NCBI RefSeq assembly: GCF_044647545.1
Contig: NZ_CP172818.1
DNA: 64,000 bases
Source: Escherichia coli
GTDB lineage: Bacteria > Pseudomonadota > Gammaproteobacteria > Enterobacterales > Enterobacteriaceae
Strand: one strand, 5' to 3'
Position numbers and translations under genes: made by a program. Under the pieces are notes generated by a model. That model did not search any database and was not told where the DNA came from. It was given only the letters and a program-made list of their open reading frames with translations. Shown here in pieces: positions 5,148 through 62,625 of this stretch (the stretch's first letter is position 1; the number at the start of each line of letters is the position of its first letter).

Positions 5148-5171
5148 ATACTTACTCCTCAAATCATCTTT

Positions 5172-5192
5172 TAATGATAATAATTCTCATTA
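5172..5192 (-). promoter_or_regulatory. Fur-box-like site in gpmA promoter
   Basis: aatgataataattctcattat immediately upstream of gpmA start resembles the Fur consensus GATAATGATAATCATTATC. Confidence 0.5.
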
Positions 5193-5349
5193 TATTGCCG
5201 TGACGAAGCAACAGCAATGCTTACGCATAACCATAGCGAAAATAGTGTCGCAGTGTAAGGTTGTTGTGAATATTGAGTTGCAAATATGTCGGTGTTTGCT
5301 GGTGATTTGAACAATATGAGGATAAAGCCCTCATGACGAGGGCTTAACA

Positions 5350-15165: not shown

Positions 15166-15984
15166 TTAAATCAGGTGGCTATAAATGAACTGGGCAATGC
15201 TGTCGGTGGTGTTATCACCAATCACAATGTTGGCGCGCGCTTTTACCGCGTCATCGGCGTTGCCCATCGCCACGCCTGTACCAGCGGCTTCCAGCATACT
15301 GATATCATTAAAGTTATCGCCGAATGCCACGACGTTTTCCATCGACCAACCTTGTGCCTCAACCCATTTCGTCAAACGTTTACCTTTGCTGTTGCCGCCG
15401 CGTGCAATATCAACCTGATCGTGCCAGGACCATTCACACTCCAGTCCCAGTTCATGTTCGACATGCTTACCAAAATGCTGCAATTGCGGCAGGTCATCGT
15501 GCGTCAGGGCGAACTTCCATACGGCGTTAACTTGTTGCGCCGTTTCAGCCAGAGAAGCGACTTGTGTGAAAGTCGGACGCTGTTCCGGCGGCAGGGTTTG
15601 CGCCCAGTTAGACGTGCGAATGACATGCCCGGTCGGGTGCTCATAGACCATTGCATCATCGACATACATCAGACCGTGAATGTGGTGTTCATTCAGCATC
15701 TCAATGAGTTGCAGGGCTTTATTAACGGGCATTGGGTCCGCTTCCAGCACTGTTTTTGCATGATAATCATACAAATAGGTGCCATTACAGCAAATAGCAG
15801 GTGTATCCAGCGCCAGCGCCTGATAAAAAGGATGAATAGCGACGTGATGGCGACCTGTGACGATGATTAATCGATAGCCTGCTTCGCGAGCACGGGCCAG
15901 GGCTTCTATCGATGATGGAAGCAGGGTCTTTTTCGGGGTCAATAAGGTGCCGTCTAAGTCGAGAGCAATCACGCGTGTGGTCAT
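15166..15984 (-). CDS. ybhA: HAD-family sugar-phosphate/pyridoxal phosphate phosphatase
   Basis: Start chosen at MTTRVIALDLDGTLL (HAD motif I DxDGT); stop abuts the modC stop with no intergenic gap. Confidence 0.9.
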   Translation of the reverse strand: MTTRVIALDLDGTLLTPKKTLLPSSIEALARAREAGYRLIIVTGRHHVAIHPFYQALALDTPAICCNGTYLYDYHAKTVLEADPMPVNKALQLIEMLNEHHIHGLMYVDDAMVYEHPTGHVIRTSNWAQTLPPEQRPTFTQVASLAETAQQVNAVWKFALTHDDLPQLQHFGKHVEHELGLECEWSWHDQVDIARGGNSKGKRLTKWVEAQGWSMENVVAFGDNFNDISMLEAAGTGVAMGNADDAVKARANIVIGDNTTDSIAQFIYSHLI

Positions 15985-19364: not shown

Positions 19365-19439
19365 AAAATTTTGTTGTCGTGATAATGACAATCAATAAAG
19401 GAATTCTGTATGAGTCATACAGAAAGAACAGGATATTAA

Positions 19440-53451: not shown

Positions 53452-54669
<1,218 letters not shown>

Positions 54670-54671
<2 letters not shown>

Positions 54672-54699
54672 AAAAAAGCCCGTCCAGTGGCGGACGGGC
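54670..54699 (-). terminator. hairpin with T-run on minus strand between ybiC and ybiJ
   Basis: gcccgtcc-N6-ggacgggc stem; minus strand reads hairpin then TTTTTTTT, consistent with a ybiJ terminator. Confidence 0.6.
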
Positions 54700-54809
54700 A
54701 AACAAGGGTAACATAGGATCAATGAGGGTTAGAGCATATGCGTCTGTCGGCAAACAGACAGGGAAATACTTGTGCTGAACGTAGCGTAACCGCCTGATTA
54801 GCATACGAA

Positions 54810-55070
54810 TTACTTATAAATTACCGCAGTACCGCTTAATTTATTGTTGTTGGTGGCAGAAGTGATGCTGTATCCACTGGCACCGGCCGCCGCGGCTTTC
54901 TCAGCCAGTTTCGCTTCCAGGGCATCGAGGGTGGATGCGCCATCGGCAGAAACCACGCCGATTTTATTCATGTTCTGTGCCTGGGATGCCGTTACCGGTT
55001 CCGCCGCGAACACGCCAAATGACAGAGTTGAAAGAGCCATAGCAGCAACAACAGTATTGATAGTTTTCAT
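54810..55070 (-). CDS. ybiJ: DUF1471 (YhcN-family) periplasmic small protein
   Basis: 86-aa ORF with signal peptide; paralogous to McbA (shared ...DLE.KLAEKA... and GTA(V/I)IYK motifs). Confidence 0.9.
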   Translation of the reverse strand: MKTINTVVAAMALSTLSFGVFAAEPVTASQAQNMNKIGVVSADGASTLDALEAKLAEKAAAAGASGYSITSATNNNKLSGTAVIYK

Positions 55071-55334
55071 AATTAATCTCTCGCAGGTGATTTTTGTATA
55101 AGTGACGTTGTTTCGTCGATGTGATGAGTATCACGTTTTTTTACGAGAGATAAAATCGAAGAGAATTGACCGCCTTGTTCAAATAAATTGATTGATATCT
55201 AACATACTGATAAACCATTTATTTGTTGTACTTATGGACTTGTTTTATACCGCGTGGCAGTCACGGTAGCGTTAAAGGCACGGAATGCCACGCAAAATAC
55301 AAATTATACTCGCTATACATCCCGCCAGTTGTAG

Positions 55335-55601
55335 TTAACGTAACTGGCTGTCTTTCGAACCTCTGCGATTATATCCTGTATAAGCTGGTTTTTGTAAATC
55401 TTTCTCCTGCTGACAATGAATGCATAAGCGCACGCCAGGAATGGCTTCCCGACGGGCCTGCGGGATAGGGGCACCGCACTCTTCACATTCATACAGGCTT
55501 TCGCCATGCGGAATTTCACCCCGAGCGCGGGCAATCGCATCTTCAATTGTACTGTTGATCTGTTCGTTGACGGCGTCATCATTAGCCCAACCGGATGCCA
55601 T
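55335..55601 (-). CDS. ybiI: DksA/TraR-family C4 zinc-finger protein
   Basis: 88-aa ORF with CEECGAPIPQARREAIPGVRLCIHCQ (CxxC-N17-CxxC). Confidence 0.9.
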   Translation of the reverse strand: MASGWANDDAVNEQINSTIEDAIARARGEIPHGESLYECEECGAPIPQARREAIPGVRLCIHCQQEKDLQKPAYTGYNRRGSKDSQLR

Positions 55602-55674
55602 ATCGTCCTCCCCATATCAATGCTTGTACAGCTAAGTGTAGCTAATATAGGGACGAACTCGGGCAGTTCAAGCG

Positions 55675-56352
55675 TCAGATCTCCGACCATTCCCGCAGCA
55701 GATTATGATAAAGATTGAGCAGCGACAGGATCTCTTCACTTTCGCCATGGCGGCTTTTCAGCGACTGAATATTGGTGTCCAGTTCGAACAGCATGGCGCG
55801 CTTTTTATCATCGCGGATCATCGACTGGATCCACATAAATGATGCCACCCGTACGCCACGGGTTACGGGTGTCACGCAGTGCAGGCTGCTGGAAGGGTAC
55901 AACACCAGATCGCCTGCCGGGAGTTTTACCCGATGTTGCCCGAAGGTGTCATTAACGACCAGTTCGCCGCCGTCGTAGCTTTCTGGATCGCTTAAAAACA
56001 GCGTGGCAGAAAGGTCAGTGCGCATCCAGCCGTTTTGTGGATGGCTGCGTACTGCGCCATCCACATGGAAACCATAGGTTTCATTGTTCTGATAGCGATT
56101 AAACAGCGGCGTGGAAAGGGTACGCGGCAAGGCCGCGGCAAAGAACAAAGCATGTTGATTAACCGCGTTCAGCACCTCATTTTGCAGGGCGGCGTATAAC
56201 GTGCTGCGGGTGTCTACCTGTTGATTGTTCTTAACTTGCGCACCTTGTGCGCCGGTGGTGACGCGTCCATCCACCCATTCGGCTTGTTCCAGTTGTTCGC
56301 GAAACCGGGCGACGTCCTTTGGCGATAGCACGCCGGGAATGTGGTACATCAT
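55675..56352 (-). CDS. ybiX: Fe(II)/2-oxoglutarate-dependent oxygenase (PKHD-type hydroxylase)
   Basis: Start chosen at [11 protein letters not shown] (225 aa); HxD motif (FHVDGA) ; directly downstream of fiu. Confidence 0.9.
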
Positions 56353-56393
56353 ACAAGTTCTCCAAAAAATGGGGCCTGCGCCCCACATCTGAA

Positions 56394-58676
56394 TCAGAAA
56401 TGCATATTGGCCGTGAGCAAGAAGGTTCTTGGCTCGCCCGGGTGATAACGGTAGCCGCTCTTGTTGATTGAGGCGACGTAATCGGTATCAAACAGGTTGT
56501 AGACGTTTAGCTGGAAGTCGAGATTGCGATTAACCCGATACCCCAGTTTAGCGTCGGCGACCCAATAACCTTCGGTAAACGCTGGCGTTCCCACCGCGCC
56601 GTCAGAACCTTTATGCATACTGCCGATATACCGTGCGCCCGCACCAACGGAAATATCATCGGTTGCCTGATATTGGCTCCATAAGGTAAAGGCGTGCTCC
56701 GGCGTATAGGGCAGCGATGAGGAACCATCTTGGGCAACATCTTTGCCGTTTTTGATGGTTGCTTTTTGCTGGGTATAGCCGCCAATCACCTGCCACGCGG
56801 GAGTGATATTCCCGGCCACGGATATCTCATAGCCTTCGACGCGTTTCTTACCGTATTGCGAGTAAGTTCCGTCATCATTTTGCTCAACTTCATTTTCGAT
56901 ATCAGTACGGAACAGCGCGGCGGTGAGCAACAGGCGTTTATCCAGAACCTGCCATTTGGTGCCAATCTCGCTGGTGTTGGCTTTTTGCGGTTTAAAATCG
57001 GTGCGGTTGGCACTGTTACCGCTGCCAGACTGCGCAAGGGCGAAGTTGTTGCCGCCCGGCGGCTGCTGGGAAACGGCATAGTTAATATAGACATTGCCGT
57101 TTTCCGTCAGGTGATACAGCGCCCCGGCTTTCCAGTTCACCAGATTGCCCGACTTGGCGGTATCGACGGTGGTGACCGGAGAACCTTTTGCCACGCCAGC
57201 AGGGCAGGTGATGGCACCGCGTCCGCTGCCGCCGCAGGCGGTGGCACTGTCATATTCAGTATGATAATTATCCAGACGGATCCCGCCGTTCAGCTCAAAA
57301 TCACGGGTGATTTGCAGCGTATCGAAGGCGTAAATTGCGAAGGTATCCGTCTGACCATTGGCGTTTGCGCCGTTGCGCGTCAGGCCGCCGGGATGAATGC
57401 TGCTGTCAGGATGATAAATATTTACCGCAGGTAACGTCACCGGATTAACGCCGTAGTTAGTCTGCGTTTCACGGGTAAATTCCACGCCGGTACTGACATC
57501 ATGACCGATAGAACCGGTATAGAACGTCGAGGTCAGGTTGGTCTGGTTGGTGAGAATTTTATTACTCACATCTTTAGTATTCGCCGTGCGTGACCAGGTC
57601 CAGCTATTCACATCGCTGGTGGGCTGGGTAATATTCGACGCCCCGCCCATAATCGCCGTCATCAGGTAATCCTGCTTCACGCGCGACCAACGGGTAGTAT
57701 TGCGAATGGTGGTGTTATCGTTGATGTCGTGCTCAAAACGCATGGTAGCGGTGTCGGTGGTCGAATCGTCGTAATCGGAATCCGTGCCGTAAAAGTTATG
57801 CGTATCAACTTTTCCGGAATGATTCAGGGCCGCCGTTCCCGCAGATGGGGCAGAATAACCCGGTAAACCGATGGTCGGAATGCCGCCGTCTGGCGTGTTG
57901 TGCTGGGTGACATGCAGATAATTAAGATACAAACGATTCGCTGTACCAAGGCCAAAAGCGACAGAAGGGGCGACGCCGTAACGCTCATTTTTGACTTTGT
58001 CGCGTCCGGCATCGTGCGTTTTTTCGCCCATCACGTTCAGGCGCACCGCAGTGGTATCACCAATGACCTGATTGACGTCCAGCGTGCCGCGGCGGAACCA
58101 GGCGCTGCCAATACTCGCGGAGGCGTCAATGCCCGAATCATTGCGCGGCTGCTTGCTGATCATATTGATCGAGCCCGTCGGCGCGCTGCGCCCGTAGTCG
58201 GTGCCGGACGGCCCTTTAATTACTTCGACCTGCTCGGTATTGAAGGTGTCGCGCGAGACGCTGCCGATATCGCGAATGCCATCAATATAAATACTGTTAG
58301 AAGTATCGGCACCGCGCATATAAATGGCGTCGCCAGTGGTGGAGTTACCGTTCTCACCCGCAAAAAACGCACCCACGCCGGGGACGTTTTTGAGCGCGTC
58401 GGTAAGGTTGGTTGCGCCCTGATCTTTAATCACTTGTTCAGAAATCACCGTCATCGTGCGGGTAGTATCCGCTACCGGACGCGAGAATTTCGGATCGGCA
58501 GATTGTTGTGGCGCATAAAGCGAAGGCGTTGATGCTTCGACAACCAGCGTGTCATCCGCGTTAGTTTGCCCTTCGGCGGCGAGAGCCTGAGCCACAGGCG
58601 TGATGCCAATACAAAGACCGGCAAAGAACGTGAGCGAATGAAATTGTCTGGCAGGGAAATTGCGATTGTTTTCCAT
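56394..58676 (-). CDS. fiu: TonB-dependent catecholate siderophore receptor
   Basis: 760-aa ORF with signal peptide, TonB-box-like DTLVVEA, and C-terminal ...LTANMHF (terminal Phe); Fur-box-like AT-rich site upstream. Confidence 0.96.
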
Positions 58677-58780
58677 TTTGCAGGTGACTTTTTCTTATAT
58701 GTTGAAATTTTCACTGCCACGAGAAAGCATCTCTGCGGATGCGATGCCACTGTTAATCTCGTGATAGCGTTCGTGCAAGT

Positions 58781-58807
58781 GATAATAATTTTGATAAGCA
58801 TTATCAC
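58781..58807 (-). promoter_or_regulatory. Fur box(es) in fiu promoter
   Basis: gataataattttgataagcattatcac, overlapping GATAAT/CATTATC Fur hexamer arrays, about 105-130 nt upstream of fiu ATG. Confidence 0.65.
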
Positions 58808-58940
58808 TTAGCGCGATTTTCTATCACCCATTGCGCGAAAAAGAAATACATTTATTTACATTGCGTTCATATTTGATGTTTTTTGCTTACAAATCGGACG
58901 AAAACTGCATCCAGAGGCGAATGCAGTTACGTTGGTGGGG

Positions 58941-59201
58941 TTATTTGTAGATGATTGCAGTACCGAACATCTGGTCATTTCCGCCTGCGGAATTAATGAC
59001 ATAACCTTTCGCGCCTTGTTCGCGCGCTTTTTCTGCCAGTTTATCCTCCAGATCGCTTAGGTTTGATGCGCCAGTTGCCGAAACGGTACCGGCGGGCCGT
59101 AGCTGACCGCTGTCCAGGTTACTCATCGGTTGCGCGGCATAAGCCGTGAGAGAGATTCCGCTCAGGACGGTGGCAATCAGTAGTGTGAGGCACTTTTTCA
59201 T
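58941..59201 (-). CDS. mcbA: DUF1471 periplasmic protein McbA
   Basis: Start chosen at MKKCLTLLIATVLSGISLTAYA (86 aa); the longer ORF to 59345 is an upstream extension. Confidence 0.88.
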   Translation of the reverse strand: MKKCLTLLIATVLSGISLTAYAAQPMSNLDSGQLRPAGTVSATGASNLSDLEDKLAEKAREQGAKGYVINSAGGNDQMFGTAIIYK

Positions 59202-59476
59202 AATGACATCCTCATAAATACAACGGGTAGTGCCTGATAAGTGTAGGTCGCCTGGGCGATGAAAATGACGCAAAAAATTGACAGAGATGTGCTTGTTTTT
59301 TGAACGATATATTTTTACAAAACAAGACAAATCAATGATATGCATAATGCTGACTTTTATGATGAATTGCCATAAACCATAGCCATGTGAAGGTTTATAG
59401 AAATGATAAACGCAGCCAGATATTTACCCTGTCGCGTTATGCGGGTATCTTACGCCGCTGCTTAAAGGAGAATGCT

Positions 59477-60403
59477 ATGTCCGCCCAGAAACCGGGGTTG
59501 CATCCGCGCAACCGTCATCACAGCCGCTACGATCTCGCCACGCTTTGTCAGGTCAATCCTGAACTCAGGCAATTCCTCACGCTTACACCCGCCGGGGAGC
59601 AAAGCGTAGACTTTGCCAATCCGCTGGCGGTGAAGGCGCTCAATAAGGCGTTGCTGGCCCATTTTTACGCCGTAGCGAACTGGGATATCCCCGACGGTTT
59701 TCTCTGCCCACCAGTACCGGGCCGGGCGGATTATATTCATCACCTTGCCGATTTACTGGCAGAAGCAACAGGATCAATTCCAGCTAATGCCAGCATTCTG
59801 GATATCGGCGTTGGTGCGAACTGTATTTATCCGCTGATTGGCGTACATGAATATGGCTGGCGTTTTACTGGTAGTGAAACCAGCAGCCAGGCGTTAAGCA
59901 GTGCGCAGGCGATCATCAGTGCTAATCCGGGGCTTAACCGCGCCATTCGTCTGCGTCGGCAAAAAGAGAGTGGGGCGATTTTTAACGGCATCATCCATAA
60001 AAACGAGCAATACGACGCGACCTTGTGTAACCCGCCATTCCACGATTCCGCCGCTGCGGCACGGGCAGGTAGTGAACGTAAACGCCGTAACCTGGGGCTA
60101 AACAAAGACGATGCACTGAATTTTGGTGGTCAGCAACAGGAGTTGTGGTGTGAAGGCGGTGAAGTCGCTTTTATTAAAAAGATGATTGAAGAGAGCAAAG
60201 GCTTCGCGAAGCAGGTGATGTGGTTTACCTCGCTGGTATCTCGTGGTGAAAACTTACCGCCGTTGTATCGTGCCCTGACGGACGTGGGCGCGGTGAAGGT
60301 GGTTAAAAAAGAGATGGCCCAGGGGCAAAAGCAGAGTCGCTTTATTGCCTGGACCTTTATGAACGACGAGCAGCGCCGCCGTTTTGTCAATCGCCAGCGT
60401 TAA
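59477..60403 (+). CDS. rlmF: 23S rRNA m6A1618 methyltransferase
   Basis: Start chosen at [15 protein letters not shown] with AAGGAG RBS (308 aa); SAM-MTase motifs [12 protein letters not shown] and NPPF. Confidence 0.92.
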
Positions 60404-62625
60404 AGCGTTGGTTCCCCCGGCGGCAACGGTTCAGCCGGGGTCGCGCCCGGAGCAGGCAGCACCTGATAAGTCTGCACTGGCGCGCGAACGCCCGCCAGGT
60501 CGAAATGTTTTTTCACCTGGCTGTCGAGGGCAAAGCGGACCGTCCACTGTTTGAGTGGCAGCGTGGTGAACGAAACACGCAGTGTAAACGCGGTATTGCT
60601 TAAGCCGACAATCCCGGCAAAATTCGGTTCACCAATAATCAGCCCGCGAATTTCTTCGTTTTCCATCAATTCCGCTACCGCATCTTTCAGTGCCTGATTG
60701 GCTTTATCAGCATCTTCATGGCGATCAACATCGTAATTTGCCACCACCGAACCAATGCCGCGGACGAAGTTAGCAAAGGTAGTTATAGAAGACCACGGAA
60801 TGATGTGATACGCCCCGGTATCCTGACGCACGCCCACGGAGCGAATCGACATCCGTTCCACAGTGCCGGTCAACGGCCCGATAGTCACCAAATCTCCAGT
60901 GTTCATACCGTTTTCAAACTGAATAAATACCCCGGTGATAATATCTTTCACCAGCGTTTGCGAACCAAACGAGATAGCCAGACCTAATGCCCCGGCACCT
61001 GCCAGCAATGGCGCGATATTGACGCCGATTTCCGACAACACAATCATGATGGTGATGGTACTGATAATCACCGCCAGCGCGTTACGAAACAGCGTAAGCA
61101 GGGTACGCGTGCGGGCGCTGGGTAGCGGGCGGCCATGAATATCCGAAGCCAGCCGGTTTTCGATCAAACTGGCGAGCACCGTCCAGCCAACCGCCGAGAA
61201 GAAAAGAATGAGTGCGATACGGATCAGGATATCTACGGTTTTCTGCCCCGCACCGTTTTGCAGCCAGTTCCAGAAATCGAACAATCCCCATGCGCTCAAC
61301 AGCAGCATTACCGCCACGCAGACGGTCAGAATACGCGCCGTTTTCAATGCCGCCGAAAGCCAGCCGTTCAGCCGTTTTTGCAGCTCCGGATAATTTCGCT
61401 GAGTATGTGGCGAGAGGGTGATGGTTTTCGCCAGCCAGCGGGAAAACATACCGGAAACAAATGCTGCGATACCAATAATCGCCAGGCTACGCACCGTTGC
61501 ACCCATCATAAATTTCAGGCTGTTGCCCGGATCGAACAACGAAAAGAAAAACAGCACGATAAAATAGGCGCTTGCCAGCCAGTGCCACACCAGCGCAAAG
61601 GCGCGGATAAACAGGCTGAAAAAGGCCAGCGAATGCTCCGCGAAGTTGAGCAAATGCTGGGTAATCTCTTTTTTATTACGAAAGATCAGGTACAGCGCCC
61701 AGACCGTCATGCACAGCATAATGATGACGTTCGCCAGCGCACCTATCTGTACATTCACCTGATTAGAGATAATCGGCACAGCCACAATCAGACCATAGCC
61801 AATCAGGCTGCTTAACCAGCTCAGGCGACGACTCCAGTAACGGGCGGTCTCGTCATGAATCGTGAACGGGCGCAGTTCAGCCACGTTTGGGCAAAAAATC
61901 AGGCGTAGTACGGCTTTGAAAAATTCAATCAGGGCAAAGGCGTTGAGAAACAAACTTTGTTGGAAAGCGATGGTGCGACTGCCCGCATTCAGGTTGTCGC
62001 TTAAAACCTGACCGACAAATAATGTCAGTGCCAGTAACAGCAGGTCGATAATAAACGCCCCGATAATCATCGCCGGAAGCTGCAACCAGTTACTGCGCTC
62101 ACGATTTTTTTGCCGCGCCCACTGGCCCATTTTGCGATACAGCGGAAGTGCGCACAGGCGAATCAGCCAGTAAAAACCAAACACTAATACCGCTAACATT
62201 GAAAAATGGGTCAACGCATTGCTGAAGGTTTGTGGATTAAACGGCTTATGCGGGGAGCCGGTGATATTGCGATAAAGTTGCCCGAAGCGGGCGGAAAGGG
62301 CTTCACCATAATGGCGGCTGACTTCGGTGACCTTTTGCAGCACGGTTTGCTCTTCAACCAGCGTCGGCGGCACGATCTTCGGTACGGGTTCTGCCGGGGG
62401 CGTCGCGGCGACGGTGCGCAACTGGTCGATCAACTCTTTACGCGAGGTGTCATTATCCAGCACATCCGCCAGTGCGCCATAGGCCGCTTTTTTTTGTTCG
62501 ATATCCGGTTCCGGGGCCGGTTCAGTCGTTGAGTCCGTTGTCGTTGTGGTTGTAACGCCGGGTATGGATACCGCGTGGGCAGGTGCGCCCAGCAGGCAGA
62601 AGAGGATGAACAGGATCCACCGCAT
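60400..62625 (-). CDS. ybiO: MscS-family mechanosensitive channel with large N-terminal extension
   Basis: Start chosen at [18 protein letters not shown] (signal-like, GGAG RBS); multiple TM segments and MscS-like C-terminal domain; 3' end overlaps rlmF stop by 4 nt. Confidence 0.92.

What the first reader, a model, noticed from the sequence alone, without database searches (positions are those of the whole stretch)
54810..59201. Paralogous DUF1471 genes ybiJ and mcbA bracket the fiu-ybiX-ybiI locus
The two 86-aa secreted proteins share clear similarity, visible directly in the translations (GASTLDALEAKLAEKA versus GASNLSDLEDKLAEKA, and C-terminal GTAVIYK versus GTAIIYK). They sit on the same strand about 4 kb apart on either side of the iron-uptake locus. 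A duplicated small periplasmic protein flanking a siderophore receptor may point to a shared envelope-stress or biofilm role linked to iron status.
Basis: seen in the sequence. Interest (0 to 1): 0.35.

Follow-up and report, generated by a model that had tools for sequence, protein, structure and literature searches.

The report
Known DUF1471 paralogues flanking fiu
Two small secreted E. coli proteins of a known family (YbiJ and McbA) do sit on either side of an iron-uptake gene pair, but this looks like a leftover of an old local gene duplication, and only ybiJ shows a weak, indirect response to iron regulation.

Summary
ybiJ (54810-55070) and mcbA (58941-59201) lie on the minus strand. Both encode 86-aa PF07338/DUF1471 proteins that are 47% identical without gaps (E 3e-23). 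They bracket fiu-ybiX-ybiI in 5416 of 5426 complete E. coli genomes.

The paralogy is already published, so this is annotated E. coli biology.

The iron interpretation holds only in part:
- The bracket is old. It is complete in 25 of 37 Enterobacteriaceae ybiX loci.
- Its parts separate freely. Enterobacter has mcbA-ybiI-ybiJ without fiu-ybiX. Salmonella has only ybiI-ybiJ. Six loci lack mcbA. Outside the family, fiu-ybiX has no DUF1471 neighbour.
- The only Fur box is at the fiu promoter.
- Published delta-fur RNA-seq falls in a polar gradient: fiu 5.5, ybiX 5.2, ybiI 3.0, ybiJ 1.2 (log2). This fits read-through into ybiJ. mcbA lies upstream behind its own terminator and does not respond (0.4, n.s.).
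- YbiJ is as close to the distant paralogue BhsA as it is to McbA.

Most interesting by-product: the ybiJ 3'UTR is the known Hfq sRNA ZbiJ. Its invariant core, TAACCCTCATT, recurs in BhsB, the 3'UTR sRNA of bhsA. A shorter ACCCTCAT recurs in the yhcN 3'UTR.

Low interest as submitted.

The parts
54810..55070 (-). ybiJ: 86-aa DUF1471 protein with a Sec signal peptide (…GVFA|AEP)
   Evidence: ORF. PF07338 at 64.8 bits. RefSeq annotation. Orthologues are 70-86% identical across Enterobacteriaceae.
54670..54766 (-). ZbiJ (asYbiE): Hfq-associated sRNA from the ybiJ 3'UTR, with conserved single-stranded core GCTC(T/C)AACCCTCATTGA and a terminator
   Evidence: 97/97 identical to K-12 zbiJ b4814. The core is nearly invariant (only the first few bases vary) and unpaired in an alignment of ten sequences from about nine genera. 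Literature: PMC8175672 and PMC8545128.
54678..54699 (-). Intrinsic terminator of ybiJ/ZbiJ (GCCCGTCCGCCACTGGACGGGC followed by T8)
   Evidence: Terminator scan. The hairpin is conserved, with one compensatory pair.
54738..54797 (+). ybiE: annotated 19-aa ORF antisense to the ZbiJ region
   Evidence: RefSeq CDS. Translation checked.
55335..55601 (-). ybiI: 88-aa DksA/TraR-type C4 zinc-finger protein, always directly upstream of ybiJ when present
   Evidence: PF01258. Synteny. Its delta-fur log2FC is 3.0-5.3.
55675..56352 (-). ybiX: PKHD-type (PiuC-like) 2OG-Fe(II) hydroxylase, partner of fiu
   Evidence: PF13640 and PF18331. A TonB-dependent-receptor match lies directly upstream in nearly all 80 loci, out to betaproteobacteria.
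56369..56386 (-). Hairpin plus T-run between fiu and ybiX, a possible partial terminator
   Evidence: Terminator scan. Function not tested.
56394..58676 (-). fiu: catecholate siderophore TonB-dependent receptor
   Evidence: Plug and beta-barrel domains. Annotation.
58775..58827 (-). fiu promoter with overlapping Fur-box repeats (GTGATAATGCTTATCAAAATTATTATCAC)
   Evidence: Best Fur-consensus matches in the region, 13-15 of 19. Promoter-like hexamers at 58827-58800. Fur ChIP-exo peak assigned to fiu-ybiX(-ybiI).
58905..58926 (-). mcbA terminator hairpin (CTGCATTC-GCCTCT-GGATGCAG followed by TTTT), which separates mcbA from the fiu promoter
   Evidence: Sequence. The hairpin is conserved downstream of mcbA in Escherichia, Citrobacter, Leclercia and Enterobacter.
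58941..59201 (-). mcbA (ybiM): 86-aa DUF1471 protein with a Sec signal peptide (…AYA|AQP)
   Evidence: ORF. PF07338 at 70.6 bits. The AF2 model matches solved DUF1471 structures. Positional orthologues are 45-73% identical outside Escherichia.

Best explanation
ybiJ and mcbA are two diverged copies of one small periplasmic DUF1471 gene. They most likely arose by a local duplication early in the Enterobacteriaceae, which is how this family usually expands. The genes between them are not one functional unit with them.

**The fiu-ybiX pair.** This is a separable two-gene cassette, a TonB-dependent catecholate receptor plus a PiuC-type hydroxylase. The receptor-hydroxylase pairing is conserved far beyond the enterobacteria. 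At this locus the cassette has been lost at least twice, in Enterobacter and in Salmonella.

**Transcription.** The locus splits into units:
- mcbA is its own unit. It ends at a conserved hairpin upstream of the Fur-controlled fiu promoter. In the literature it is repressed by McbR.
- fiu-ybiX-ybiI is the Fur-repressed operon.
- ybiJ has its own stress-responsive expression, mainly acid-induced. It also receives decaying read-through from the fiu promoter when Fur is off, because no intrinsic terminator lies between ybiI and ybiJ.
- The ybiJ transcript ends in the Hfq sRNA ZbiJ. Iron limitation should therefore modestly raise ybiJ and ZbiJ, but not mcbA.

**Proteins.** Both are exported, RcsF-like alpha+beta domains. 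They probably act on envelope properties or envelope signalling, as reported for BhsA and YhcN and for McbA with colanic acid. Their biochemical activity remains unknown.

**Shown:** paralogy, fold, synteny patterns, position of the Fur box, published expression values.
**Inferred:** duplication origin, read-through as the cause of the ybiJ response, envelope role.
For: **Family and fold**
- Paralogy.
- Fold: the McbA AF2 model has a beta-alpha-beta-beta domain with pLDDT 74-90. Its best PDB matches are DUF1471 structures 4EVU, 2JNA, 2M2J, 2MA8 and 2NOC, followed by RcsF 2Y1B and 2L8Y.

**The family expands locally**
- yjfN-bsmA are adjacent, and yjfY lies 8 kb away across the ula operon.
- yhcN has a tandem yhcN-like gene in Salmonella, Raoultella and Siccibacter.
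- In Enterobacter, mcbA and ybiJ are separated only by ybiI.

**Tree**
- Each of the four subfamilies is monophyletic (91-100% bootstrap).
- YbiJ+McbA are sisters in the best NJ tree.

**The cassette is separable**
- Synteny patterns.
- A Citrobacter locus holds a 42-aa fiu remnant and a broken ybiX (L042).
- Other genes occupy the rlmF-fiu gap where mcbA is absent.

**Regulation**
- Fur box only at the fiu promoter.
- No minus-strand terminator between ybiI and ybiJ, and a strong one after ybiJ.
- Delta-fur log2FC (PMC10164565 Dataset 3):
  - MG1655: fiu 5.47, ybiX 5.21, ybiI 3.04, ybiJ 1.24, mcbA 0.40 (n.s.)
  - W3110: 10.0, 7.1, 5.3, 3.1
  - W: 8.3, 5.7, 4.5, 1.2
- McbR repression of mcbA is cited in PMC4092069.
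- Acid induction of ybiJ, bhsA and yhcN, but not mcbA, among the top 20 genes (PMC10746267).
Against: - The YbiJ+McbA sister grouping has weak bootstrap support: 33% on full-length proteins, 59% on mature proteins. In K-12, YbiJ is equidistant from BhsA (73.6 bits) and McbA (73.2 bits). Sequence alone therefore does not prove a local duplication.
- The ybiJ response in delta-fur could be indirect, through stress in the mutant, rather than read-through. It is not significant in strain W (p 0.09). No transcript-mapping data were examined.
- The full bracket persists in 25 of 37 loci across several genera. Both genes are co-induced on radish sprouts. Some selective linkage therefore cannot be excluded.
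- Whether fiu-ybiX was gained or lost at this site was judged by parsimony over a few genera, not on a dated species tree.
Confidence: 0.7

Rival explanations
1. One reading: the two DUF1471 proteins form a functional module with Fiu/YbiX. For example, they could be periplasmic accessory or envelope-stress factors tuned to iron status, with selection keeping them on both sides of the receptor.
For: - The bracket is conserved in 25 of 37 Enterobacteriaceae loci across several genera.
- ybiJ rises in delta-fur in two of three strains.
- Both genes are co-induced on radish sprouts.
- The ybiJ-ybiC intergenic RNA (ZbiJ) formed RIL-seq chimeras with fepA, mostly under iron starvation, as summarised in PMC11979758.
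Against: - Every part occurs without the others: Enterobacter, Salmonella, loci without mcbA, and fiu-ybiX alone outside the family.
- mcbA does not respond to fur deletion.
- There is no Fur box or ChIP peak at either DUF1471 gene.
- The promoters share no sequence.
- The family's other paralogue pairs flank unrelated genes, such as the ula operon.
Confidence: 0.08
2. The flanking position is a coincidence of independent origins. mcbA did not arise beside ybiJ; it was derived from another paralogue such as bhsA and landed in the variable rlmF-fiu gap.
For: - McbA is about as close to BhsA as to YbiJ (70.9 vs 73.2 bits). Several Citrobacter McbA orthologues score higher against BhsA than against YbiJ.
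- The rlmF-fiu gap is a variable spot that holds a flavin reductase, a fimbrial gene or a BglG-type gene in other genera.
- Bootstrap support for YbiJ+McbA is weak.
Against: - Only about 0.08 paralogue pairs are expected this close by chance, and both genes share one orientation.
- Enterobacter shows them nearly tandem.
- The best NJ topology joins YbiJ and McbA. The alternatives get only 12-21% bootstrap.
- Tandem duplication is documented elsewhere in the family.
Confidence: 0.15
3. The read-through is functional by design. ybiJ/ZbiJ would be a selected distal member of the Fur-controlled fiu operon, so that iron starvation raises ZbiJ, which then adjusts rpoS and siderophore-receptor mRNAs. 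This overlaps with the best explanation but adds selection and a purpose.
For: - The polar gradient appears in three strains.
- There is no terminator between ybiI and ybiJ.
- ZbiJ represses rpoS when overexpressed (PMC8545128). The conserved core is the segment predicted to pair with rpoS -28..-6.
- fepA chimeras formed under iron starvation.
Against: - The ybiJ increase is small and not significant in strain W.
- ZbiJ and ybiJ are fully conserved in Salmonella and Enterobacter, which lack fiu at this locus, so ZbiJ does not depend on the operon.
- Predicted pairing of ZbiJ with the fepA translation-initiation region is no better than with shuffled sequences.
Confidence: 0.25

Closest known systems
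DUF1471 / YhcN (BhsA/McbA) family, Pfam PF07338 (Rudd 1998; Eletsky et al. 2014, PMC4092069)
   Same: - Both proteins score well above the Pfam cut-off.
- Both are about 86 aa with a signal peptide and a C-terminal GTAxIYK motif.
- The McbA model matches solved family members.
- The paralogy of YbiJ and McbA is stated in the literature.
   Different: Nothing differs; these are the named E. coli members. McbA is the fastest-evolving of the four close subfamilies. Its within-family identity is 61%, against 75-84% for the others.
Other clustered DUF1471 paralogues: yjfN-bsmA...yjfY around the ula operon, and the yhcN + yhcN-like tandem in Salmonella, Raoultella and Siccibacter
   Same: Same-family copies lie adjacent or a few kb apart. 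In the ula case they sit on either side of an unrelated operon.
   Different: Those pairs are more divergent (yjfN/bsmA 30%) or directly tandem. Here the intervening genes include a Fur-regulated operon whose transcription leaks into the downstream copy.
TonB-dependent receptor + PiuC-type hydroxylase pairs (Fiu-YbiX; PiuA-PiuC in Pseudomonas, from my own knowledge)
   Same: In nearly all 80 loci recovered with YbiX, a TonB-dependent-receptor match lies directly upstream, in Enterobacterales, Massilia, Nitrosomonas, Methylophilus and others.
   Different: The DUF1471 genes and ybiI are Enterobacteriaceae-specific neighbours. They are not part of this conserved pair.
RcsF (outer-membrane lipoprotein sensor of the Rcs envelope-stress system)
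   Same: Similar alpha+beta fold. RcsF chains 2Y1B and 2L8Y rank just below the DUF1471 structures in the Foldseek search. The resemblance was already noted in PMC4092069 and in bioRxiv 2025.02.11.637708.
   Different: McbA and YbiJ have no lipobox, no disulfide-forming cysteines in the mature domain, and only about 13% identity to RcsF. The resemblance is one of fold, not of family membership.
3'UTR-derived Hfq sRNAs ZbiJ and BhsB (Bar et al. 2021, PMC8175672; Han & Lory 2021, PMC8545128)
   Same: Window 54670-54766 is identical to K-12 ZbiJ. Its architecture is a 5' hairpin, a single-stranded conserved core and a Rho-independent terminator.
   Different: What may be new is that ZbiJ and BhsB share the 11-nt core TAACCCTCATT and come from paralogous host genes. 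The words 'paralog' and 'seed' do not occur in the main text of PMC8175672. I did not find this stated in the papers I read.

Membership tests
DUF1471 / YhcN family (PF07338) | Match to the Pfam PF07338 model above its gathering score | tested here: met
   YbiJ scores 64.8 bits and McbA 70.6 bits against a cut-off of 27. Both cover profile positions 1-55 of 55.
DUF1471 / YhcN family (PF07338) | Small (~90 aa) single-domain protein with an N-terminal Sec signal peptide | tested here: met
   Both are 86 aa. By inspection, each has a hydrophobic N-terminus ending in an AxA-type site (GVFA|AEP; AYA|AQP). No signal-peptide predictor was run. The AF2 model has low pLDDT for residues 1-30 and an ordered domain from residue 36.
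DUF1471 / YhcN family (PF07338) | Mixed alpha+beta fold of the solved members (SrfN, YahO, YdgH domains) | tested here: met
   The McbA model has E36-45, H48-61, E66-73 and E78-85. Foldseek top hits are 4EVU, 2JNA, 2M2J, 2MA8 and 2NOC with probability 1.00 and TM 0.58-0.63. YbiJ was not modelled here. A published AF2 comparison is cited in bioRxiv 2025.02.11.637708.
DUF1471 / YhcN family (PF07338) | Restriction to Enterobacterales | tested here: inconclusive
   In the 80 ybiX loci, DUF1471 ORFs occur only in Enterobacteriaceae. All named hits in three protein searches are enterobacterial except one 'Proteobacteria bacterium' MAG. No unbiased search of all taxa was made.
Fur regulon (direct targets) | Fur box in the promoter region | tested here: not met
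   For ybiJ and mcbA the best match upstream is 12/19 or lower. Matches at that level (12/19 or better) occur 137 times in the window. The fiu promoter has overlapping 13-15/19 matches.
Fur regulon (direct targets) | Fur binding in vivo (ChIP) | not testable with these tools
   From published data: the ChIP-exo tables for nine strains list fiu-ybiX(-ybiI) but never ybiJ or mcbA (PMC10164565 Dataset 2).
Fur regulon (direct targets) | De-repression in a fur mutant | tested here: inconclusive
   From published data: ybiJ log2FC is 1.24 (p 3e-6), 3.08 (p 1e-8) and 1.18 (p 0.09). mcbA is 0.40 (p 0.31) in MG1655 and is not listed for the other two strains. ybiJ therefore responds, probably indirectly, and mcbA does not.
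fiu operon (single transcription unit from the Fur-controlled promoter) | Same strand, downstream of the promoter, with no intervening intrinsic terminator | tested here: inconclusive
   - ybiX and ybiI meet the criterion.
- ybiJ lies downstream on the same strand, with a 264-bp gap and no minus-strand terminator-like site. The expression gradient is compatible with read-through.
- mcbA does not meet it. It lies upstream of the promoter and is followed by a conserved hairpin.
- No transcript maps were examined.
Hfq-dependent 3'UTR sRNA ZbiJ | Sequence identity to the validated K-12 sRNA, a Rho-independent terminator with U-tail, and a conserved unpaired core | tested here: met
   97/97 identity. 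Terminator found. The core GCTCCAACCCTCATTGA is nearly invariant and unpaired in an alignment of ten sequences from about nine genera. Expression and Hfq dependence come from the literature only.

The most novel reading that the evidence does not exclude
The four closest DUF1471 paralogues (ybiJ, bhsA, yhcN and possibly mcbA) may have inherited more than the protein from their common ancestor. They may also have inherited a 3'UTR-derived regulatory RNA with a C-rich core, (U)AACCCUCAU.

On this reading ZbiJ and BhsB would be paralogous sRNAs with overlapping target ranges, including SD-like sites such as that of rpoS. At this locus, Fur-dependent read-through from the fiu operon would link iron starvation to ZbiJ output.

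**Evidence so far**
- ZbiJ and BhsB share an exact 11-mer. My estimate of the chance of this is about 0.002.
- The motif is conserved in ybiJ 3'UTRs of 30 of 36 loci, and also in Salmonella. Enterobacter carries a one-base variant, CACCCCTCAT.
- It is conserved in bhsA 3'UTRs of E. coli, Salmonella and Leclercia.
- ACCCTC(A/G)T follows the stop codon of the last gene of the yhcN locus in five genera.
- Klebsiella variants of both the ybiJ and the bhsA 3'UTRs carry ACCCTG instead.
Probability: 0.35. Interest if true: 0.5.

Novelty: already known. Interest (0 to 1): 0.2.

Why it matters
As submitted it matters little. Both genes, their family, their paralogy and the Fur control of fiu are already annotated and published.

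The useful outcome is negative. The flanking arrangement should not be read as evidence that DUF1471 proteins take part in catecholate-iron uptake. Comparative genomics shows the parts come apart freely, and mcbA ignores Fur.

Two points could be worth a small follow-up:
- Fur de-repression of fiu appears to leak into ybiJ, and therefore into the sRNA ZbiJ, a reported repressor of rpoS. This would be an unplanned or weakly selected link between iron limitation and the general stress response.
- The 3'UTR sRNAs of the paralogues ybiJ and bhsA share a conserved core. If confirmed, this would be a clear example of an sRNA duplicated together with its host gene.

Tried and rejected
- **Fur consensus search at up to 3 mismatches.** It found only one site, far away at 5176. 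I replaced it with a full mismatch profile.
- **Rfam scan of 53500-60500 at E<=1.** It gave only two sub-threshold hits (anti-hemB 22 bits vs 49.5; a betaproteobacterial toxic sRNA) over the ZbiJ terminator region. I treat these as chance. ZbiJ has no Rfam match.
- **Shared upstream regulatory sequence among ybiJ, mcbA, bhsA and yhcN.** No pair exceeded shuffled controls.
- **mcbA pseudogene remnants in the six loci that lack it.** None were found at E<=10. Other genes occupy the gap.
- **Full-length sRNA-mRNA duplex prediction.** It gave unrealistically long duplexes no better than shuffles, so I discarded it.
- **Core-only duplex prediction.** It reproduced the published rpoS site but was only marginal against shuffles (8%). 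It showed nothing for ZbiJ-fepA.
- **Biopython bootstrap.** It timed out, so I re-implemented it in numpy.
- **Protein searches with YbiJ, BhsA and YhcN.** The listed top 120 hits of each were essentially all from the query's own subfamily. They gave orthologues but no overview of the whole family.
- **Search for 'ZbiJ' without whole-word matching.** It returned unrelated papers.

Full report
**1. Observation**

The window is E. coli. Positions 54500-59500 are 100% identical to strain FDAARGOS_497, and 5416 of 5426 complete E. coli genomes carry at least 80% of this stretch in one place.

All five genes lie on the minus strand:

| Gene | Coordinates | Product |
|---|---|---|
| ybiJ | 54810-55070 | 86 aa, DUF1471 |
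| ybiI | 55335-55601 | DksA/TraR zinc finger |
| ybiX | 55675-56352 | PKHD/2OG-Fe(II) hydroxylase |
| fiu | 56394-58676 | TonB-dependent receptor |
| mcbA | 58941-59201 | 86 aa, DUF1471 |

YbiJ and McbA align over all 86 residues without gaps at 47% identity (E 3e-23). Both match Pfam PF07338 well above threshold.

**2. It is already known**

Eletsky et al. 2014 (PMC4092069) describe the DUF1471/YhcN family. They list about twelve paralogous subfamilies and ten paralogues in E. coli, including YbiJ and YbiM/McbA, and note that Salmonella lacks a close McbA homologue. A 2025 preprint states directly that "YbiJ is a paralog of McbA" and points out the RcsF-like fold.

I reproduced the fold assignment. 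An AlphaFold2 model of McbA has a beta-alpha-beta-beta domain with pLDDT 74-90. Its best PDB matches are solved DUF1471 structures (4EVU, 2JNA, 2M2J, 2MA8, 2NOC), followed by RcsF.

**3. Are the two genes special to each other?**

I fetched all ten K-12 paralogues and compared them. YbiJ, McbA and BhsA form an almost equidistant trio:

| Pair | Bits |
|---|---|
| YbiJ-BhsA | 73.6 |
| YbiJ-McbA | 73.2 |
| BhsA-McbA | 70.9 |

YhcN comes next. bhsA lies about 330 kb away.

I built a neighbour-joining tree of 48 sequences from many genera.
- Each subfamily is monophyletic, with 91-100% bootstrap.
- YbiJ+McbA are sisters in the best tree, but bootstrap support is only 33% (full length) or 59% (mature protein).
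- McbA evolves fastest. Its mean within-family identity is 61%, against 79% for YbiJ, 84% for BhsA and 75% for YhcN.

Local duplication is thus the favoured origin, but it rests more on position than on sequence:
- About 0.08 paralogue pairs would be expected within 4.4 kb by chance (my arithmetic from the K-12 coordinates).
- The family shows other local clusters. yjfN-bsmA are adjacent, and yjfY lies across the ula operon. yhcN has a tandem yhcN-like gene in Salmonella, Raoultella and Siccibacter.

**4. Is the bracket conserved, and is it a unit?**

A scan of one genome per species with YbiX returned 80 loci. I mapped the window's proteins and all DUF1471 ORFs onto them.

Among the 37 Enterobacteriaceae loci:

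| Pattern | Loci |
|---|---|
| Full order: mcbA-like, fiu, ybiX, ybiI, ybiJ | 25 (one more is cut by a contig end) |
| ybiI missing (Kluyvera) | 5 |
| mcbA missing | 4 |
| Both ybiI and mcbA missing | 2 |

Where mcbA is missing there are no remnants. The rlmF-fiu gap instead holds a flavin reductase, a fimbrial gene or a BglG-type gene.

The TonB-dependent-receptor/YbiX gene pair has no DUF1471 neighbour in Rouxiella, Pantoea, Serratia and Tatumella. The same is true of the 34 loci outside Enterobacterales, which are mostly betaproteobacteria.

The converse also holds when loci are reached through YbiJ itself. Enterobacter cloacae has rlmF, mcbA-like (61% to McbA), ybiI and ybiJ with no fiu-ybiX. 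A Salmonella genome has rlmF, ybiI and ybiJ with no mcbA, fiu or ybiX. One Citrobacter locus retains only a 42-aa fiu remnant and a broken ybiX (L042).

So the arrangement is old, but each part occurs without the others.

**5. Regulation and iron**

Sequence features:
- The only Fur-box-like cluster in the region overlaps the fiu promoter at 58775-58827, with up to 15/19 matches. Nothing reaches 13/19 upstream of ybiJ or mcbA.
- mcbA lies upstream of that promoter. It is followed by a hairpin (58905-58926) conserved in Escherichia, Citrobacter, Leclercia and Enterobacter.
- No minus-strand terminator-like site lies between ybiI and ybiJ. A strong terminator follows ybiJ.

Published data agree with these features. 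In Gao et al. 2023 (PMC10164565), Fur ChIP-exo peaks are assigned to fiu-ybiX(-ybiI) and never to ybiJ or mcbA. Delta-fur versus wild-type log2 fold changes fall off along the operon:

| Strain | fiu | ybiX | ybiI | ybiJ | mcbA |
|---|---|---|---|---|---|
| MG1655 | 5.47 | 5.21 | 3.04 | 1.24 (p 3e-6) | 0.40 (p 0.31) |
| W3110 | 10.0 | 7.1 | 5.3 | 3.1 | not listed |
| W | 8.3 | 5.7 | 4.5 | 1.2 (p 0.09) | not listed |

This polar gradient is what read-through from the fiu promoter would give, though an indirect effect is not excluded.

Other expression data:
- mcbA is reported to be repressed by McbR/YncC (cited).
- ybiJ, bhsA and yhcN, but not mcbA, are among the top acid-induced genes (PMC10746267).
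- ybiJ and mcbA were both strongly induced in EHEC on radish sprouts (PMC4048457).
- The upstream regions of ybiJ, mcbA, bhsA and yhcN share no detectable sequence.

**6. Beyond the finding: the ybiJ 3'UTR**

The K-12 annotation shows the sRNA gene zbiJ and the 19-aa ORF ybiE between ybiJ and hcxB. Window 54670-54766 (-) is identical to ZbiJ. K-12 carries an extra ~90-bp REP element just after the ybiJ stop that this strain lacks.

What is published about ZbiJ/asYbiE:
- It is a validated Hfq-associated 3'UTR sRNA (PMC8175672).
- It represses rpoS when overexpressed, by pairing at the Shine-Dalgarno region (PMC8545128).
- The ybiJ-ybiC intergenic RNA formed RIL-seq chimeras with fepA, mostly under iron starvation (PMC11979758).

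What I found across genera:
- In an alignment of ten sequences from about nine genera, only the terminator hairpin is a consensus structure. The core GCTC(C/T)AACCCTCATTGA is nearly invariant (only its first few bases vary) and unpaired.
- This core is the segment predicted to pair with rpoS -28..-6.

The core 11-mer TAACCCTCATT also occurs in BhsB, the 3'UTR sRNA of the paralogue bhsA. The local alignment scores 25, against 14.2 ± 2.3 for shuffles. There it is conserved in E. coli, Salmonella and Leclercia.

Related motifs occur in the other close paralogues:
- The last gene of the yhcN locus is followed by ACCCTC(A/G)TCGTC in five genera.
- mcbA 3'UTRs are short and begin with a C-rich element: CCCCACCAAC in E. 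coli, CCCTCAGC in several Citrobacter.
- Klebsiella and Raoultella ybiJ 3'UTRs and the K. pneumoniae bhsA 3'UTR both carry ACCCTG variants.

The words 'paralog' and 'seed' do not occur in the main text of the paper that named both sRNAs. This suggests, but does not prove, that the sRNA was duplicated together with its host gene.

**7. Verdict**

The pair is best explained as diverged products of an old local duplication around a separable fiu-ybiX cassette.
- Iron status reaches ybiJ (and ZbiJ) only weakly, probably by read-through. It does not reach mcbA.
- The molecular function of the two proteins remains unknown beyond the envelope-related, RcsF-like picture in the literature.
- Interest is low. 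The sRNA-paralogy lead is the only part that might deserve follow-up.

Noticed in passing
window 54670-54766 (-); K-12 loci L083:7304-7403 (BhsB) and L085:8803-8860 (yhcN 3'UTR): The ybiJ 3'UTR sRNA ZbiJ and BhsB, the 3'UTR sRNA of the paralogue bhsA, share the exact 11-mer TAACCCTCATT. The yhcN 3'UTR starts with ACCCTCAT. The motif is conserved across genera in each family. This suggests the sRNA was duplicated together with its host gene.
   Followed up: partly
L027, L030, L033, L035 (ybiJ 3'UTRs) and L092:1759-1860 (K. pneumoniae bhsA 3'UTR): In Klebsiella and Raoultella the ZbiJ core reads AACCCTG... instead of AACCCTCAT. The K. pneumoniae bhsA 3'UTR also carries ACCCTG and ACCCTTG motifs. 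The two paralogous 3'UTRs may have changed in parallel, or by gene conversion, within one lineage.
   Followed up: no
window 54672-54809 vs K-12 L087:2438-2665: K-12 has a ~90-bp REP-like insertion directly after the ybiJ stop codon that this strain lacks. The downstream ZbiJ sequence is unchanged. Several other E. coli genomes matched in two pieces, consistent with the same indel.
   Followed up: partly
window 54738-54797 (+): The annotated 19-aa ORF ybiE lies antisense to the 5' part of ZbiJ. In this strain it translates to MRLSANRQGNTCAERSVTA, which is not hydrophobic, although the literature describes YbiE as hydrophobic.
   Followed up: no
K-12 locus L086:7018-7771 and 15517-15792: yjfN and bsmA lie on one side of the ula (ascorbate) operon and yjfY on the other. 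This is a second case of DUF1471 paralogues bracketing an unrelated operon.
   Followed up: partly
L095:1868-2134, L097:1867-2133, L098:1874-2140: Salmonella, Raoultella and Siccibacter carry a tandem second DUF1471 gene right after yhcN, 53-59% identical to YhcN. E. coli and Citrobacter lack it. In those three genera the conserved ACCCTCGTCGTC 3'UTR follows the second gene rather than yhcN.
   Followed up: partly
L042:7465-8674 (Citrobacter sp. Awk 4): fiu is reduced to a 42-aa remnant and ybiX appears frameshifted, while mcbA, ybiI and ybiJ are intact. This looks like an intermediate on the way to the Enterobacter-type arrangement.
   Followed up: no
L027:4762-5373, L020:4346-5365, L024:4413-5282: Where mcbA is absent, the gap between rlmF and fiu holds different genes: a flavin reductase, a fimbrial protein or a BglG-type antiterminator. 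The gap is a variable insertion spot.
   Followed up: partly
window 56369-56386 (-): A hairpin plus T-run lies between the fiu stop and the ybiX start. It may be a partial terminator and could contribute to the drop in delta-fur induction from fiu to ybiX.
   Followed up: no
window 5170-5194 and 19381-19399: The best Fur-consensus matches in the whole window lie here (16/19 and 15/19), far from the finding. The neighbouring genes were not examined.
   Followed up: no
E. coli strain 10, NZ_CP146507.1 (hit H6): An IS110-like IS621 transposase is annotated within the matched fiu-ybiX region in this strain.
   Followed up: no
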